NCBI GenBank assembly: GCA_951406725.2
Contig: OX597820.1
Location: 33,294,001-33,358,000 of the forward strand
Reading direction: 5' to 3'
DNA length: 64,000 bases
Source of the DNA: Octopus vulgaris
Taxonomy: Eukaryota
This document shows positions 5,062 through 26,115 of the stretch, piece by piece (the first letter of the stretch is position 1; the number at the start of each line of letters is the position of its first letter). The notes below the pieces were generated by a model that saw only the letters and a program-made list of their open reading frames with translations, did no database searches and was not told the DNA's origin. Made by a program: the position numbers and the translations under genes.

Positions 5062-6078
5062 TGTATGTATGTATGTATTTATGTATATATGTATGTACGT
5101 ATGTATGATTGTGTGTATGTATACGAGTAAGTTTTGTTTTACGCATATATTCTCATGAATATAGACATGCTCATATATATGTAAATGATAAACTTCTGTG
5201 AAGTTTTACAGGTTTTTACAGTTCCACTAATGGATTGGATCTGTAGTCTTCTAATTAGCTTTCACCTTCATGATTTTGAGACGCCTAATTTCTCAAGATT
5301 GGTATTTAGGTAGTATGTTACATATCCCAGGACCCCAAAAATTACAGGTATTAACCTGAAATTGTAATCTGGATAGAGTAATTACAAATTTCTCAATAGT
5401 TCAGCGTAGATATTCTCTTTTTCACTGCAGTTAATTCCCACAACTTTTCACAGTTTCTCCTCTCTATCCCAAATCATAACAGGTCTATTGCCCTTACATT
5501 TTATTGAGGTCTTCACCTGGAAATTCCACCAGTACTCCCTTTTTATTGTGAGTGGTTATGGCTTCTGCCATACTGTGGGTTCTTATTTCTTTCTCCTCGA
5601 GGTTATCCTTCCGACGGATTTTATTATAGAGTGTCCTAGCTACAACATCATATCACATCGGTAGATTATACCGTGATGACATCTTCGGTGTTAACTCCAC
5701 AACGTCTGCATCGGTTGTCACATTTTACTGCATTTCCTGCATCACTATCCCTTTTGTGCATTAGGTACTAGGTCGATATTTCTTGTTCCTGGATTGCAAA
5801 CGCATACCTTTCAAAGTGGGAGGTAGTTAGTACCCCGGCTATTGGTCCATGATGAACTGCTTTGATGCTCAATGTTACTATCGTCATCTGGGAGCTTTCT
5901 ACTAGCATGTCCATGTATAGTCTCATATAGACTTATCCTTTCATCTGATGACGCGTTTCGGTAGTCCTACGACTTCTTTGGGAATGTATTCTAGGTTATC
6001 AGACAAAAATTTGCTCAAAGAGCTGCCTTTCAAGTCTCATGATGTTATCAGCCTCATGTGTGCAAACTTGGTCAATGG
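4908..6078 (-). mobile_element. 5'-truncated, decayed R4-like RLE non-LTR retrotransposon embedded in (CATA)n
   Basis: Minus-strand translation fragments: IHGH, FAIQEQEIST, CDNRCRRCG (Zn knuckle start), YDVVARTLY (RHD region), WWNFQVKT..KGNRP (PD region), EKENIYAELLRNL, IPVIFGVLG. A 3'UTR follows. (TATG)n lies at the 5' junction and in the UTR; a short TATG-rich stretch lies at the 3' end. Confidence 0.8.
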
Positions 6079-15421: not shown

Positions 15422-17048
15422 CAGTTACGGCCAAAATGTTCAGAACGGTATTGCTTTCTCAGAAAAGTAAGTATAAGTTTTTATCAAAGTAGTTTTATAT
15501 TCATAATTTTCACAGACAATAAATACAATATTAATTGTTATTGTCTGAGATTTTGGTGTAATTTGAGAGGATAATACAAAAGTTATGGATGATTTAGTGA
15601 TTTACTGCAAAACCCATGGCGGCCAAAATGATCAGAACGGTTGAAAAAATAACAAAATAATCAAAAATGACAGAGAATACTGGAATTATTTAATATTTAG
15701 TGTGAAGCCCTTTAGCTTCAATCACACTCTGACATCTTCGACTGCATGAGGAAATTAAATTTTCAATTTCTTGCTGGGTGATCTTATTCCATTCTTCCTG
15801 AAGGGCATTCCATAATTGCTCAGTTGTTTTAGGATTTCTGGCTTTCGAACGTTCTCCTAGAATATTCCATACATTTTCAATAGGATTGAGATCTGGGCTT
15901 TGAGCAGGCCAATCCATAACAATAACCTTTTCAGCCTTGAGGAAGTTCATGACCACTTTAGCCTTGTGACATGGGGCATTGTCCTGCATGAATATGGGTG
16001 GTCGCTTAGTTGAATTTCTCAGCACAGGCAAGACATGATCTTTTACAAGTTGTTTATAAACTCCTGCATTTACCTTTCCATGTAATCGCACCAAAGGGCC
16101 CACACAATCTCCAGATATCATCCCCCAAACCATGACACTTCCTCCACCGAATTTAACACTAGTCTTAAGGCATTTAGGCGACAATTTTTCACCTACTTTT
16201 CTACGAACGTACCTTTTCCCATCTGAGCCAAATAACATAAACTTAGATTCATCACTGAAATGCACCGTTTGCCATTTTTCTTGAGACCACAACACATGTT
16301 CGGTTGCAAAGGTAAGACGACACTTTTTATTCTTGGAGCTGATCAGTGGCTTCACTGCAGGTGCTCTTGCTTGTAGGTCATGTTCAACTAAACGACGAGA
16401 CACAGTTTTTCGAGATAAAGTTTTCTTCAATACAATGCTCATTTTCCGAGAACCAGCAGCAGCAGTTTTAAATTCTGTCCTTTTTAACCAACTTTACCAT
16501 AGCACGATCTTCTCTCTTGGTCGTTTTCTTGGCCTACCTGTAAACTTTCTTGCTTCACACGAACCACAATCATCGTAGACCTTAAGAATACCGTGTACAA
16601 CACTTTTTGACTTGTTAACAATCTTTGCAATAGATCCAATACTTAAATTATCCTTCCTTCGAAGCTTAATAATCTGCTGACGAATTGGTAACAGAGTAAG
16701 TGGCATTATATTAACAAAGTACACTGCAAATATTCTTACTAATGTTTAGTAAACGAACCATCACGTAAACAAATTCAAAACATTAGAGTTCGCCGGTTAA
16801 ATATACTAAAACACGGAGTAAAAGCAACCGTTCTGATCATTTTGGCCGCCATGGGTTTTGCAGTAAATCACTAAATCATCCATAACTTTTGTATTATCCT
16901 CTCAAATTACACCAAAATCTCAGGCAATAACAAATAACATCGTATTTATTGTCTGTGAAAATTATAGAATATAAAACAACTTTGATAAAAAATTATATCT
17001 ACTTTTCTGACGAAAACAATGCCGTTCTGAACATTTTGGCCGCCACTG
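15422..17048 (-). mobile_element. Tc1 DNA transposon, IR/DR type, ~220-bp TIRs, TA target site
   Basis: TIRs 15422-15643 and 16825-17048. Each has two direct repeats GGCCAAAATG(T/A)TCAGAACGG. Flanked by TA within (TA)n. DD34E transposase inside. Confidence 0.95.
15690..16706 (-). pseudogene. Tc1 transposase (DD34E), ~338 aa, with two compensating 1-bp frameshifts
   Basis: N-terminal HTH and GRPRK, then FSDESKF, MQDNAPCH, SPDLNPIE (34 residues between D and E). The N- and C-terminal ORFs share one frame; indels lie near 16525 and 16473. Confidence 0.9.
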
Positions 17049-19212: not shown

Positions 19213-19306
<94 letters not shown>

Positions 19307-19307
19307 C

Positions 19308-19358
<51 letters not shown>

Positions 19359-19416
19359 TAAAATATTATTATTAAAAATATTATTAAAAATAATAATAAT
19401 AATAAAAAGAAACTCA

Positions 19417-19447
<31 letters not shown>
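19212..19447. repeat. (AAT)n switching to (ATT)n microsatellite
   Basis: Direct inspection. Confidence 0.95.
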
Positions 19448-19449
<2 letters not shown>

Positions 19450-22422
19450 GACAATCTTTTGCACTTCTTGCAGGGATGGTAAGCCAGGGATCATTCTCAT
19501 ATAATTTTCGGTTCCCTTCTTGATCATTCCTAGTGCTCCTACGATCACTGGTATTGTAACCGCCTTGAGATGCCACATTTTCTCAATTTCAATGAGTAGG
19601 TCTTTATATTTTCTGAGCTTGTCAAACTCTTTCGCTGAGATATTATGATCACAGGGGATGCTCATGTCGATCAATAAGCAAACTTTATTGTTTTGGTCTT
19701 TCACAACAATATCTGGTTTATTGGCCTTGATGGTTCGGTCTGTATGTACTGGAAAGTCCCACAGAATGGTTACATTTTCTCCTTCAGTTACAGCCTCAGG
19801 GTGGTGATTATACCACTTGTCGGCAGTTTTGATATTGTAATGCCGACTTATTAGCCAGTGGAGATATTGGCCAACTCTGTCATGTCTTAATTTATACTCC
19901 ACTGGTGCTAAGACTTTACATCCAGAGATTAGGTGGTCCACTGTTTCAATCATGTCGTTGCAGAATCGGCATTTTGGGTCTGCTCCATTTTTCATCACAT
20001 TGGCCTGGTAGTTCCGGGTTAATAGGCTTTGGTCTTGAGCAGCCAGGATGAAACCTTCGCTCTCTGCTTTTAGCCCTGAGCTCCGCAGCCACTGATGGGT
20101 TTGCTTCTGGTCAACATCAGCTTGTTTGCTGCGGGTCACATATTTGCCGTGCAGAGGTTTCTCCTCCCACCTATCAGCCAATTGCTCGTGCGCTTTTTTC
20201 ATTGCCATCATTTTCACCTTCTTTGCAACAATAGTTGCCGTACTTCCCTCGGGTTGTTCAGTTTGGGTATCCTGCACGAGATCAATAGCAAATTTTTTGC
20301 TTTCCTTGATGATAGAATGAAGCTTCTTTCGTCTCTCGTGATTTTCCACGAGCTTTAGCATCCAGTCATTCGATATTTCGAGATATTTGGCCAGTCCAAT
20401 TGTGGTTGTTTTGTAAGCTATTTCAAATTGGATCAGGCCTCGACCTCCTTGGGCTCTGGGAAGGTAAAGGCGATCTACGTCTGCCTTTGGGTGGTGCATC
20501 CTATTACAACTCAGCAGCTTGCGTATTTTTCTATCTATATTCTTTACTTCACTCATATTCCAGTTCAACACATTGTAGCTATAAGTAACAACTGGAACTG
20601 CTAAGGAATTTATAGCTAATACCTTGTTACGTGCATTTAGTTCAGATTTCAGGACTGCACGAACTCTCCTATAACATTCCTTCCTGATTTTCTCTTTCAT
20701 GCTTGCATGCTGAATACCAGAGCCTTCATTTATCCCTAAATATTTGTATGTCTGTTCTTGCTCAAGCTCTCTTATGACTGTGTCAACATCTAACACGACT
20801 GAATTTGTGGTCTTCACTTTCCCTTTCTGGAAAGTGGCCTTGGCACACTTCTCAAGTCCAAACTCCATCCCGATGTCATCGCTGAATGCTTTCACTGTGC
20901 GCAATAGGCCTTCAAGTTCATTATTGTCTTTACCATAAAGTTTTAAGTCATCCATATAAAATAGATGGCTTATTTTTTTATTGGCAATTTTATACCCATA
21001 CCCTGTTCTGTTTAATTCACTTGTAAGGGGTATTAGGGCTATGCAGAATATTAAAGGTGAAAGTGAGTCACCTTGAAAAATTCCACAGTTGATGTTTATA
21101 TTTTCTGAGGCAAGTACTCCATTAGAGTGGTATAATTGGAGATTCGTATTCCACAACGACATATTGTGCTTCAGGAAGTTTGAAATCACAGGGGAAATTT
21201 TAAAGATGTCCAGCGATCTCAAGATCCATGGATGCGGTATACTGTCGAAGGCCTTTTTATAGTCAATCCATGCGGTGCTGAGATTTCTGCGCTTGTTGTG
21301 ACAGTTCTCAAGGATCATACGATTGATTAGCAGTTGATCTTTGCATCCGTAAGAGCCTCGGCGGCACCCTTTTTGTTCAATGGGGAAAATATCGTTCTTC
21401 TCCATGAATGCATATGTTTTCTCCGCCAGGATAGATGTTAGGATTTTATACGTGGTGGATAGACAGGTTATAGGCCGATAGTTTTTTGGAAGGTTGGTTT
21501 CGTTATTCTTTGGGAGTAGGTAAGTAATGCCACTTGCTAACCATTCAGGTGTTTTCTTTGGGTCTCTCAAAATTCCATTAAGCAGCTGAACTAGCTTACC
21601 GTGTGCGCACGGGAGCGATGCGAGCCAGAAATTCGGCACCCTATCTTTACCGGGGGATTTCCAATTATGGGCCTTCGTGAGTGCCTTTCTTAGGTCTGCT
21701 ATTGTGATGTCTTCCCATGCTTGTTGTTGTAAATTTTGGTAGGATCCTTGAGTTTGTATAATCCAGTCTGCATTTATGTTGTACGTCTTCTTGTCACTCC
21801 AAATCCTTTCCCAAAAGTTTTGAACTTCTTCCATGGGAGGAGGGTCTTTAACGGTTACTTTCTCCTTCCCTATTTCTCTGTAGAATTTTTTGGCATTGGA
21901 TGTGAACAGCTTATTTTGCTTGTAAAACTTGTTTCTCTTCTCAAATCTTCGTATTCTTTGGGCTTTTGCTTGGACTTTTTGTTTCAGCCTTTCTTTTATT
22001 GATATCAGTTCTTCTCTTGGTGAGGATCCAAATTTTCTCTTCATCTTTCTTCCTGTTCTGGATCTTACATCATTTCCACATATTAGTTCATTTAATATTG
22101 ATATTTCCCCTCTCATAAATTCAATCTCTTTTTCAATTTTACTTCTCCAGGTTTGATTTCTTCCCAGGTTTTGTTTTCTTTGTTTTTTCGGGGGCATACA
22201 GCTGGTTTCAATTGCCCTAGCAGAAGCGTAAATAATTTCATTTAACTCAGTAAAATCAGGTTTTAATTCTCGTATTATTTCATTTGTTACATAGTTGGCA
22301 ATTTGGATTTGTTTTTTATTTTGGTTTGTATTTGAGAGTTTATGAAGCGGTTCTCTATCATTCATACTTGTATGTCTTACAACTTCAAGCGTATTCAGGA
22401 TTTTCTGCCTCATTTCTGCCAT
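19414..22422 (-). CDS. Reverse transcriptase / CCHC zinc knuckle / restriction-like endonuclease polyprotein (frame open upstream to ~22677)
   Basis: Motifs KSPGKD, NYRPITCL, EQKGC, WIDYKKAFDS, GIFQGDSLSP, YMDD, YKYLG, GGRGL, HGKY, CRFC..ETVDHLISGC, RHD, KPDIVV..IDMSIP..K. No internal stops. The last codons read into (ATA)n. Confidence 0.92.
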
Positions 22423-22757
22423 AGACTCTCTGTGTTCTTCAGCAAATGCGAGATCTTCAGTTACTGTTGTTTTTTCGTTTTCCTGGCTATCTTTAACAGG
22501 TACAATAGAATTTCTTGTATCTTCAGGCCTTTGCGTACTTTGGTCAGATGGCAGTCTTTCAATTAAGCCTCGTGGCGGGCTATACTGTTCATCTGATTCT
22601 TCATTTCCTTTGTGTCTTATATTTATGTCATTTTCCGTTGCGTGCTTGATCGCACTTATTTCACTGTCTGTGAGTCTTATTTCTAAAGATATCCCTCCTC
22701 ACATTTGCTAATTTGTTCTCGTCCAAATAGGGCCTACTGTCTTGATTGTCTACTGTC

Positions 22758-22758
<1 letters not shown>
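19448..22758 (-). mobile_element. R4/Dong-clade non-LTR retrotransposon, element 1, in (TAA)n; truncated at both ends
   Basis: Single ORF with RT, CCHC and RLE domains. Both ends abut TAA repeats. An N-terminal remnant YLDENKLANVRRDI lies at 22690-22730. Confidence 0.95.
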
Positions 22759-22827
<69 letters not shown>

Positions 22828-22859
22828 CATTATTTTTTTTAATAATATTTTTAATAATG

Positions 22860-22940
<81 letters not shown>
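22759..22940. repeat. (TTA)n microsatellite between the two Dong-like elements
   Basis: Direct inspection. Confidence 0.95.
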
Positions 22941-22943
<3 letters not shown>

Positions 22944-23944
22944 TAGTTTTATTTTTATAGCGTGCTTTCACTTCACTACCGAACGCAGCTCTGTGTGCCT
23001 TGGGTATGTGCTGTGATTTGTTGTGATGCTCTGATGGTTATTGTATGGAAAGTGTTCTGCGTAGGATGTGTGCAGTGCCTAGTAGTGCAATTTTCTGTAT
23101 GTTATATGTGTTTGTAAGCCCTGGTGTTTTTATTATGTATTTGTCTGAATATTTTTTTATCATGCCTAATGCACCTACTATGATAGGAATTGTTTCTGTT
23201 TTTAGATTCCTCATTCTGGTTATCTCTATTTCCAGGTCTTTGTATTTTGAAAGTTTCTCCATTTCTTTTAGAGACACGTTGTCATCTGCTGGTATTGATA
23301 CATCAATTAGAAAGCTTTTTTTTCTTCATGATCTCTGACAACTATATCTGGTCTGTTGGCCTTAATTTCTCTATCTGTGTGTATCGGCATATCCCAGAGT
23401 ATGGTTGCATTCTCGTTTTCTGTGACCTTTTCTGGTGGGTGCCTATACCATCTTTTTTCTGTTGTTATTTCATAATGTTGGCATAGCTTCCAGTGTATGT
23501 AGGTCCCAACTCTGTCATGTCTGTGAATATATTCCTTCTTAGCCAGGACTGGGCAGCCAGAGATAATATGATTTATTGTTTCTTGTCCATCTCCACATAT
23601 TCTGCAGTTACTTGTAATATTTCTTTTCATTACATGTTTTTGGTAATTTCTGGTGGGGAGGCTTTGGTCTTGTGCTGCAATTAAAAATCCCTCTGTCTCT
23701 GCTTTGAGTCCTGAGCTTCTCAACCATTGCTGGGATTTTTCTTTGTCTATTTCTTTTGCATTTAGTTTAGTCCAGTATTTACCATGAAGGGGCTTTTCTT
23801 GCCATCGTTTTATCATGGTTCTTTGCTGTTCTAGTTTTAGTTTGGATTTCATTTGTCTTATAGCTTTTGTTGTTTCTTCATCTTCTTCTTCTTCTTCTTC
23901 TTTTTCTTCTTCTTCTTCTTCTTCTTCTTCTTCTTCTTCTTCTT

Positions 23945-23975
<31 letters not shown>

Positions 23976-25581
23976 TTTGTTAGGTGGTATGATTTCTTGT
24001 TTGTATTTGTCAGCTTCCTTAAATACTGAGAACAGATTTTTGTTTTGCTCGTGTTTTGCCGCTATTTGTATCCGTTTTCCTTCCTTCTGAAGTAGATATT
24101 TTTGCAGTCCTATAGTGGTTATTTTATAGTAGTTTTCCAGCTGTATAAGGCCTCTACCAACTTCTATACGTTGTATATATAGTCTTTCTATGTCAGATTT
24201 TGGGTGATGCATCCTAGATCCTGTCATTATTTTTCTTGTTTTCCTATCTATTTCGGTCAGTTCATTTAGTGTCCAGTTAAGGATAGTGTAGCTGTAACTT
24301 ATAACTGGGACAGCTAAAGTGTTGATACCTATTATCTTGTTTTTAGCATTGAGCTCTGTCTTTAGTATTGATCTAACTCGTCTATAATATTCTTTCTTTA
24401 TTTTCTCTTTCATTTGTGTGTGTTGTGTCTTATCTAGTTCATGGATTCCTAAATATTTGTAAGTTTGGCTTTGGTCTAATTCTTTATTTCATTGGTTTTT
24501 TCTAGCGTTATGTTGCTACTCTTAACTAGTTTTCCTCTTTACAGGATTACTTTGGCGCATTTTTCTAATCCAAATTTCATATCTATTTCTTTGGTAAATC
24601 CATGAACTGTCTTTAATAGTGTTTCCAGCTGTTTGTCATTTGCAGCGTATAGTTTTAGGTCATCCATATATAAAAGGTGGCTGATCGTTTTGCCGTAACA
24701 TTTATATCCGCATCCAGTTCTATTTAGCATATCAGATAGAGGTGACAGTGCCAAGCAGAAAAGGAGTGGAGAGAGCGTGTCTCCCTGGAATATTCCTCTT
24801 CTAATGGGGATGGCTTTGGTTTTCATGAGTCCCTCTTTTGTTTGGAGCTGTAGCACTGTTCGCCAATTATTCATAGAGTGACCTATGTATTTTATAATTG
24901 TTGGTGCTACTTTGTTAATGGCTAGTGTTTCGAGGATCCATGTGTGGGGGATGCTATCAAACGCCTTTTTGTAGTCGATCCATGCCATACTGAGGCCTTT
25001 CTTCTTTCTGTGGCTGTCGCCAGTAATGGCTTTATTGATCATTAGTTGATCTTTACAGCCATATGAGCCTTTGCGGCATCCTTTCTGCTCTTCTGGAAAC
25101 AGGTTGTTTTCGTCCAGGTGCTTGTTTAATCTTTGTGATATTACTGCAGTAAATGCTTTGTACATTGTAGGGAGACAGGTTATAGGTTTGTAGTTTTCTG
25201 GTTTTGCTGTCTCATTGGATTTGGGAATTAAGATGGTTTTCCACTTCGTGAGCCATTCAGGCATTGTCTCTGGCTCTGCCAGTATGTTGTTAAAGCTTTC
25301 AGCCAGCTTTTTGTGTATTCCTGGTAGATATTTCAACCAGAAGTTGGGGATCTTGTCATGCCCAGGTGCCTTCCAGTTGCTTAGTCTTTGCAGTGCCTGG
25401 GTGACCTCTTCAGTTGTTATGGGGGTCCAAAGTTGCTCAGATGCTATGTTTGTTGTTTTAATACTCCTTTTTTTTTGGTTGTTCATTCGTCGACCATATT
25501 CCTTTCCAGAATTCTTCCACTTCTTCTGCCGTTGGTGCTGCAGTGATATCTATTTTATTCTTGCCAAGTTCTTGGTAGAAC

Positions 25582-25583
<2 letters not shown>
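22941..25583 (-). mobile_element. R4/Dong-clade retrotransposon, element 2 (different family), 5'-truncated, with intact 3'UTR
   Basis: ORF pieces 24539-25486 (RT: YKPITCL, DYKKAFDS, QGDTLSP, YMDD), 23973-24413, 23307-23852 (CRIC..HIISGC, RHD, RPD) and 23038-23277 (GTAHILRRTL*). A ~97-nt 3'UTR runs into (AAT)n. Frameshifts and stops present. Confidence 0.95.
23873..23972 (-). repeat. (GAA)n expansion inside the element-2 ORF
   Basis: (TCT)n on the plus strand, in frame as poly-Glu. Confidence 0.9.
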
Positions 25584-25647
<64 letters not shown>

Positions 25648-25687
25648 CATTATTATCATTATTATTATCATTATCATTATCATTGTG

Positions 25688-25993
25688 AGGGCGCGTGGCT
25701 TAGTGGTTAGGGCATTCGGCTCATGATCGTAAGGTTGTGAGTTCGATTCCCGGCGACGCGTTGTGTCCTTGAGCAAGACACTTTATTTCACGTTGCTCCA
25801 GTCCACTCAGCTGGCAAAAATGAGTTGTACTTGTATTTCAAAGGGTCAGCCTTGTCACTCTCTGTGTCACGCTGATTATCCCCGAGAACTACGTTAAGGG
25901 TACACGTGTCTGTGGAATTCTCAGCCATTTGCACGTTAATTTCACGAGCAAGCTGTTCCGTTGATCGTATCAGCTGGGACCCTCGTCGTCGTA
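25688..25993 (+). mobile_element. tRNA-derived SINE (family B-type head)
   Basis: GGCGCGTGGCTTAGTGGTTAG A box, GTTCGATTCC B box, then GTGTCCTTGAGCAAGACACTT. Confidence 0.8.
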
Positions 25994-26115
25994 ACCGGCG
26001 GAGTCTTTTTTTTTTAATCATTATCATTATTAGTATTAGTATTATTATTATGATTATTATTATTTTCATTATTATTATTAATATTATTTATTATTATTTT
26101 GATTATTATAATTAT

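What the first reader, a model, noticed from the sequence alone, without database searches (positions are those of the whole stretch)
19414..22758. Uninterrupted >1000-codon RT-RLE ORF that lacks its own 3' end
Seen: the frame is open from ~22677 to 19414 with all catalytic motifs intact, implying a very young family. Yet it ends at ...VQKIVL and reads straight into (ATA)n. It lacks the GTAHILR-like C-terminus and 3'UTR that element 2 has. TPRT starts at the RNA 3' end, so 3' truncation is unexpected. The junction GTCTTAA|TAATAA suggests internal priming at a UAA microhomology, or re-cleavage/recombination. The 5' junction has a small GACAGTAG duplication.
Basis: partly seen in the sequence, partly recalled or inferred. 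Interest (0 to 1): 0.7.

Follow-up and report, generated by a model that had tools for sequence, protein, structure and literature searches.

The report
Tailless retrotransposon copy at AT palindrome
A young but broken copy of an abundant jumping gene lacks its last ~217 bases in this assembly, likely because an AT-rich hairpin beside it broke and was patched by error-prone repair; thousands of sister copies keep that end, so this is likely a one-off scar, not a new way of jumping.

Summary
The 1094-codon frame is one copy of a young, (TAA)n-targeting, Dong/R4-like RT-RLE family (about 5.5 kb, 1235-codon ORF). The family does not end here: 3058 + 29 genomic sites continue past GTCTTAA and only this one runs into TAAT. 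The copy lacks ~217 nt (13 conserved codons and the 3'UTR). It is also 5'-truncated and frameshifted, so it is dead. The junction is not a clean join. After (TAA)9 come 13 nt copied from the lost 3'UTR, then an inverted copy of a 23-mer from the 5' flank (3 sites in 2.8 Gb, two flank this copy), then (TTA)62. Plain internal priming does not explain that. Best reading: a hairpin-prone (TAA)n/(TTA)n palindrome broke next to the tail and microhomology repair with templated inserts removed the 3' end (0.45). Rival: break-coupled insertion with template jumps (0.3). Public contigs neither confirm nor refute the junction (artefact about 0.15). Other 3'-truncated copies exist (2 of 53 sampled). The closest known cases are L1 non-classical insertions and Pol-theta delins. 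Four look-ups in this scan's notes showed no earlier report of it. Low interest.

The parts
19446..22747 (-). Body of the retrotransposon copy (3,302 nt of a ~5.5-kb family), truncated at both ends
   Evidence: BLAST to 39 long copies, 97.8-99.8% identity; position in family
19414..22698 (-). 1094-codon stop-to-stop frame: RT, CCHC knuckle, RLE; family frame only from ~22677; ends in 10 Ile and a TGA supplied by the junction insert
22677..22678 (-). Private 2-nt deletion that shifts the conserved N-terminal NKLANVRRDI motif out of frame
   Evidence: 0 of 39 copies share it; motif conserved in 36-sequence alignment
22748..22759 (-). 5' junction insert: 10-nt templated duplication AAGACAGTAG plus AC
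   Evidence: absent from 29 of 29 other loci; similar duplications in about 6 of 89 other copies by eye
22758..22940 (-). Left target tract (TAA)24-jumble-(TAA)26; also the tail of element 2
22836..22858 (-). 23-mer ATTATTAAAAATATTATTAAAAA, left copy, 78-100 nt upstream of the 5' junction
   Evidence: 3 sites in the genome
19446..19448 (-). 3' breakpoint: TAA microhomology; family continues CTGGTACATC (13 codons + 3'UTR, ~217 nt lost)
19419..19445 (-). (TAA)9 filler
19406..19418 (-). 13-nt TATGAGTTTCTTT identical to the family's lost 3'UTR (templated insert)
   Evidence: 0 of 516 flank segments reach 11 nt; 9 of 20,000 shuffles reach 13
19368..19390 (+). 23-mer, right copy, inverted relative to the left one
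   Evidence: 0 of 77 control copies share 15 nt or more inverted between flanks
19213..19405 (+). Right tract (TAA)~62 on +, i.e. (TTA)n in element sense: opposite to the normal target orientation, forming a palindrome with the left tract
22941..25583 (-). Element 2: older, broken RT-RLE copy of a different family with an intact 3' end (GTAHILRRTLSIQ-stop, 3'UTR, TAA tail)

Best explanation
This is a dead, 5'-truncated copy of a young (TAA)n-targeting RT-RLE retrotransposon family (likely Dong/R4) that lacks its last ~217 nt, likely because it inserted normally into one arm of a (TAA)n/(TTA)n palindrome, a hairpin break likely formed just behind its tail, and microhomology-guided (Pol-theta-type) repair likely deleted the 3' end while copying in (TAA)9 and 13 nt of the lost 3'UTR. 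Shown: family structure, both truncations, the 13-nt insert, the inverted 23-mer, the flipped flank, and that intact copies with a tail followed by (TTA)n exist. Inferred: the order of events, the hairpin break and the repair enzyme.
For: Breakpoint unique, 1 of 3088. 3-nt TAA microhomology plus an insert from the deleted interval, placed out of order after (TAA)9; this resembles the delins signature in PMC5068794 (passages). The precursor state exists: at least 42 distinct loci in the first 100 of 193 matches have an intact 3' end, tail, then (TTA)4+, and convergent flips are 9 of 442 (TAA)8+ runs. The genome-rare 23-mer on both arms in inverted orientation (0 of 77 controls) fits a fold-back palindrome into which the element inserted. 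Microhomology deletions are common in this family: 8 events in 93 copies/227 kb, most with 0-3 nt overlap. PMC11371274 (passages) reads internal-transgene-to-genome fusions as non-TPRT because TPRT needs the template 3' module.
Against: The copy is very young (3 private substitutions and one 2-nt deletion in 3.3 kb), leaving little time. At least 42 copies tolerate the palindrome intact, and the other 3'-truncated copies seen (C29, L118, L124) have no flipped flank, so the link palindrome-to-loss rests on n=1. The insert source lies ~135 nt from the left breakpoint, whereas most mapped delins in PMC5068794 come from within 20 bp. The inverted 23-mer and the 5' duplication are equally explained by one messy insertion event. 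No empty or intermediate allele was seen.
Confidence: 0.45

Rival explanations
1. One break-coupled insertion: a (TAA)n 3' end on the wrong strand (cruciform tip or target deletion) primed synthesis; the polymerase copied the opposite flank in inverted orientation, then 13 nt of the RNA 3'UTR, jumped to the (UAA)n tail, jumped again to the internal UAA and ran on for 3.3 kb (like L1 non-classical insertion, with RT template jumps).
For: The 23-mer was ~80 nt from the target before insertion but is 3.4 kb from the 3' junction now. Both ends carry templated pieces; the 5' kind occurs in only about 6 of 89 copies. Each step has 2-3 nt microhomology. NCLI loci are 3'-truncated, AT-rich, with filler DNA (PMC1920257 passages). 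R2 protein cleaves 4-way junctions (PMC6895275 abstract) and template-jumps. L117 shows element piece-TAA filler-element at a 5' junction.
Against: Needs three jumps and a non-canonical primer; R2-type jumps are described to RNA 3' ends, not internal sites. No fold brings the breakpoint next to the tail (z = 0.66). A pre-existing palindrome (about 2% of tracts) explains the 23-mer without copying.
Confidence: 0.3
2. Assembly artefact: the AT-only stretch behind the element was mis-assembled or mis-polished, leaving a 13-nt remnant of the true 3'UTR.
For: The junction lies in ~230 nt of almost pure AT with hairpin potential; a surviving 13-nt piece of the 3'UTR could be a consensus remnant.
Against: The body is near-perfect (0.24% from majority), no N, and the remnant is not at colinear spacing (27 nt instead of ~135 nt). 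Similar AT jumbles occur in read-derived contigs at other junctions (table 7), and the other sampled tails are assembled cleanly.
Confidence: 0.15
3. Simple internal priming: the normal (TTA)n target nick paired with the internal UAA instead of the tail.
For: TAA microhomology and (TAA)9 directly after the break; internal priming is described for Alu (PMC5402677 passages); L124 ends at the internal A-tract.
Against: Used once in 3088 sites; does not account for the 13-nt 3'UTR piece (p about 5e-4 by shuffles) or the inverted 23-mer.
Confidence: 0.07

Closest known systems
Dong/R4-clade non-LTR retrotransposons (Bombyx Dong; Dong-R4 families of Octopus vulgaris, PMC13282606; ostracod Dong, PMC7998251)
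   Same: Single ORF with RT, C-terminal CCHC and RLE; no N-terminal zinc finger; (TAA)n target and tail; young, high-copy. PMC13282606 lists 5 families and 1,129 recently active Dong-R4 insertions (passages).
   Different: No tree against named R4/Dong proteins was possible. This copy lacks both ends.
Non-classical (endonuclease-independent) L1 insertions, NCLI (Sen et al. 2007, PMC1920257)
   Same: 3' truncation, no proper tail, filler DNA including AT-rich repeats, microhomology, AT-rich site.
   Different: RLE element, not L1; sits in its normal target tract on the 5' side; pre-insertion allele unknown, so insertion versus later deletion is open.
Polymerase-theta delins (van Schendel et al. 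2016, PMC5068794)
   Same: Deletion with 1-3 nt microhomology and templated inserts, some in reverse-complement (snap-back) orientation.
   Different: Insert source ~135 nt from the breakpoint, farther than most mapped cases; enzyme not shown here.
Alu/L1 internal priming (described in PMC5402677)
   Same: Loss of the 3' end at a short match to the primer.
   Different: Gives a clean junction with TSDs; here the junction is composite.

Membership tests
Dong/R4 clade | Single ORF with RT followed by CCHC knuckle and restriction-like endonuclease | tested here: met
   1235-codon ORF in 6 of 39 copies; RVT_1; CCHC, RHD, KPD, K..KY; only significant PDB hits are R2 proteins
Dong/R4 clade | (TAA)n microsatellite target (insects, molluscs, cnidarians; PMC7998251) | tested here: met
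   72 of 83 scorable 5' junctions have a TAA-type run within 80 nt (window included); tails are (TAA)n or degenerate in 39 of 39
Dong/R4 clade | No N-terminal zinc finger | tested here: met
   No CCHH pattern in the family ORF; no Pfam finger in the first 300 aa
Dong/R4 clade | Diverged N-terminal SANT/Myb-like domain | tested here: inconclusive
   A conserved K/Q-W...Y...W helical block at aa 85-150 in 36 homologues, but no Pfam or PDB Myb hit
Dong/R4 clade | 5' HDV-like ribozyme (PMC3774820) | tested here: inconclusive
   Rfam gave no HDV-type hit; a loose descriptor finds possible folds but is not specific enough
Dong/R4 clade | RT phylogeny groups with R4/Dong | not testable with these tools
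   No named R4/Dong reference sequence came from any call (one search hits are unnamed)
Non-classical insertion (NCLI) | 3' truncation without tail or TSD, with filler DNA | tested here: met
   no direct flank repeat, though informative TSDs are visible in only 1 of 77 controls
Non-classical insertion (NCLI) | Empty ancestral allele shows that only element-boundary sequence changed | not testable with these tools
   No relatives held for this genome
Non-classical insertion (NCLI) | Site departs from the endonuclease consensus | tested here: inconclusive
   5' side is a normal (TAA)n target; 3' side is flipped
Pol-theta delins | Microhomology and templated insert at a deletion junction | tested here: met
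Pol-theta delins | Dependence on polymerase theta | not testable with these tools
   needs genetics

The most novel reading that the evidence does not exclude
An R4/Dong-type retrotransposon patched a cruciform break at a (TAA)n/(TTA)n palindrome from the wrong-strand primer, its reverse transcriptase hopping three times along its own RNA (3'UTR, tail, internal UAA) before copying 3.3 kb: a genomic fossil of endonuclease-independent, break-primed insertion by an RLE element, with thousands of sister copies available to measure how often it happens.
Probability: 0.2. Interest if true: 0.5.

Novelty: new member of a known kind. Interest (0 to 1): 0.22.

Why it matters
As a single dead copy it matters little. 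If the junction is real, it shows that an RLE-type LINE can lose the 3' end needed for TPRT at AT palindromes next to its own tail. The family (over 3,000 copies under ~1% divergent, a few percent 3'-truncated, dozens followed by inverted tracts) is a ready data set for asking whether such losses arise during insertion or later. That bears on junction fidelity of R2-type gene-insertion tools.

Tried and rejected
Read support: Logan contigs of X1, X2, X23, X21 (the repeat part was skipped by the tool) and X1, X2, X21, X3 showed no contig crossing the 3' junction (depth 0 at 19435-19443 in 4 of 4). Contigs drop rare variants, the stretch is almost pure AT, only ~80% of X1 was read and the individuals may differ, so this is no evidence either way. 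'Family ends here': rejected. 'Family has more 5' than 3' copies' (769 vs 29): an artefact of my first pattern carrying an older variant base; the young variant gives 3058. Recurrent priming near this site: a 30-nt-gap search found 2 loci, the window and C29; two neighbouring anchors found 0. Inversion with a reciprocal 3' piece: none in the window; the two C7 orphans, 19 and 65 Mb away, look like ordinary short insertions. RNA fold bridging breakpoint and tail: not found. 23-mer as part of another repeat: rejected, 3 sites only. The script's 'templated' class at 5' junctions (9 of 82 others) included substitutions near the junction, so I counted by eye (about 6 of 89). Two of 60 fetched regions were taken on the wrong side of the anchor and gave little 5' flank; 9 of 62 copies with an older 3'UTR were left out of the 2-of-53 count. 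The Atlas gave no result for the N-terminal domain. The Dong paper PMC309301 was not held. Literature searches listed no paper on 3'-truncated Dong/R4 copies, but none could match the primed term exactly and subscription journals are missing.

Full report
Observation. The minus strand holds a stop-to-stop frame of 1094 codons at 19414-22698, 1002 from the first Met, with RVT_1 at E=7e-30 and R2 proteins as the only PDB matches. It ends QEVQKIVL, ten Ile and a TGA. The window lies in a 2.8-Gb, 227-contig genome. The repeat landscape, and earlier notes of this scan that call the genome octopus (unchecked), suggest an octopus; I did not test this.

The family. A search with the 3' part gave 29 other loci, all of which continue past GTCTTAA. 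A search with the 5' part gave 769 candidates. I fetched the 39 best other hits in full: 39 of 39 keep the terminal 3'UTR and a (TAA)n-type tail. Exact 21-mer counts are 3058 for GTCTTAA|CTGG, 29 for the older |TTGG variant and 1 for |TAAT, the window. Full copies are about 5.5 kb with a 1235-codon ORF ending IVLTGTSHVLRRALSM, whole in 6 of 39. These 39 lie 0.03-1.85% from their majority (median 0.36%; they are best hits, so biased young). The ORF has QGDSLS, YMDD, CCHC, RHD, KPD and K..KY and no N-terminal CCHH. With the (TAA)n target this fits Dong/R4 as described in PMC7998251 (passages); Dong-R4 is the largest recently active LINE group in O. vulgaris (PMC13282606, passages and one supplement row; PMC8967140 passages). 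No tree with named references could be built, and the Myb-like domain and 5' ribozyme tests were inconclusive.

The copy. It starts about 1,980 nt into the element, has a private 2-nt deletion at 22678 and three private substitutions, and lacks ~217 nt at the 3' end. The lost 13 residues are conserved in 36 aligned proteins (R1230 in 35, H1227 in 32, T1225 in 31). It cannot be an active copy. The 5' junction has a 10-nt duplication plus AC; similar duplications are visible in about 6 of 89 other copies, and extra or duplicated bases at R2 5' junctions are known (PMC2718515 passages).

The 3' junction. In element sense it reads GTCTTAA, (TAA)9, TATGAGTTTCTTT, an AT jumble, then (TTA)~62. The 13-mer is identical to the family 3'UTR about 135 nt beyond the breakpoint; 0 of 516 flank segments match 11 nt or more and 9 of 20,000 shuffles match 13 or more. 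The jumble holds a 23-mer that also lies, inverted, 78-100 nt upstream of the 5' junction. It occurs 3 times in the genome, twice here (the third site is unrelated). None of 77 control copies shares 15 nt or more inverted between its flanks (maximum 10). The right tract is flipped relative to the normal target; 1 of 53 sampled copies has (TTA)4 within 150 nt of its end.

Context. 3' truncation is not unique: a second copy on C29 ends 17 nt earlier, 2 of 53 young copies sampled from C1 lack 54 and 123 nt, and one X1 contig shows a copy running into (GAT)n at 19470. Internal deletions of 30 nt or more number 8 in 93 copies (227 kb), 4 in copies under 1% diverged. Convergent (TAA)/(TTA) flips are 9 of 442 runs in fetched DNA, and at least 42 distinct loci (first 100 of 193 matches) have an intact 3' end followed by tail and (TTA)4+.

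Mechanism. I favour normal insertion into one arm of an existing AT palindrome, followed by a hairpin break behind the tail and microhomology repair with templated inserts (0.45). The precursor state is common, the junction has the delins signature (PMC5068794 passages), and TPRT normally needs the 3' module (PMC11371274 passages). Against it: the copy is very young, many palindrome-flanked copies are intact, the other truncated copies have no flip, and the insert source is far from the break. A single break-coupled insertion with template jumps (0.3) explains the same letters and ties both ends together; it resembles L1 non-classical insertion (PMC1920257 passages) and fits R2 junction cleavage (PMC6895275 abstract). 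Mis-assembly stays open (0.15) because no raw reads were available. Plain internal priming (0.07; cf. PMC5402677 passages) leaves the 13-mer and 23-mer unexplained. That AT palindromes form cruciforms and break rests on a search listing and general knowledge. PMC3774820 and PMC4640811 were read as passages; PMC13526784 as abstract only and is not relied on.

Verdict. Real in the assembly, an uncommon but known kind of event in a known kind of family. Interest 0.22; new member of a known kind. The inverted flank copy and 3'UTR insert are the new details; only an empty or intermediate allele can decide the timing.

Noticed in passing
window 22298, 21989, 21750: All 3 private substitutions of this copy are C<->G transversions; background among private changes in the 40-copy alignment is 32 of 414. 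Post hoc and unexplained; could reflect error-prone fill-in or consensus error.
   Followed up: partly
window 15690-16493 (-), inverted repeats from ~15545 to ~16923: Tc1/mariner element: 267-codon frame with HTH_Tnp_Tc3_2 and DDE_3 above cut-off and a perfect inverted match of at least 59 nt at its ends; looks young.
   Followed up: partly
window ~25685-26005 (+): SINE-like element with a tRNA-like head (by eye; ARAGORN calls no tRNA) just 5' of element 2; SINE, element 2 and element 1 are nested in one TAA tract.
   Followed up: no
L075 and L072/L094 5' ends (full-length copies): The first ~110 nt of the family are structured and could be an HDV-like ribozyme; Rfam gives no hit and a loose descriptor is inconclusive.
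   Followed up: partly
L066 (G000:C12:88262524-88269024): A ~125-nt direct target-site duplication of an interrupted TAA tract flanks this copy; 1 of 77 copies shows one.
   Followed up: no
L069, L076, L087, L097 3'UTR A-tract: Runs of T inside the internal poly(A) tract, as from quasi-palindrome template switching or polishing error.
   Followed up: no
family 3'UTR (L070 ~5440-5490): By eye a stem TTTCTTTGCC...GGCAAGAAA; the 13-nt insert overlaps its 5' arm. The fold of the whole 3' end is no better than shuffles (z = 0.66).
   Followed up: partly
window ~8446 (-): A second convergent (TAA)n/(TTA)n flip in the window.
   Followed up: no
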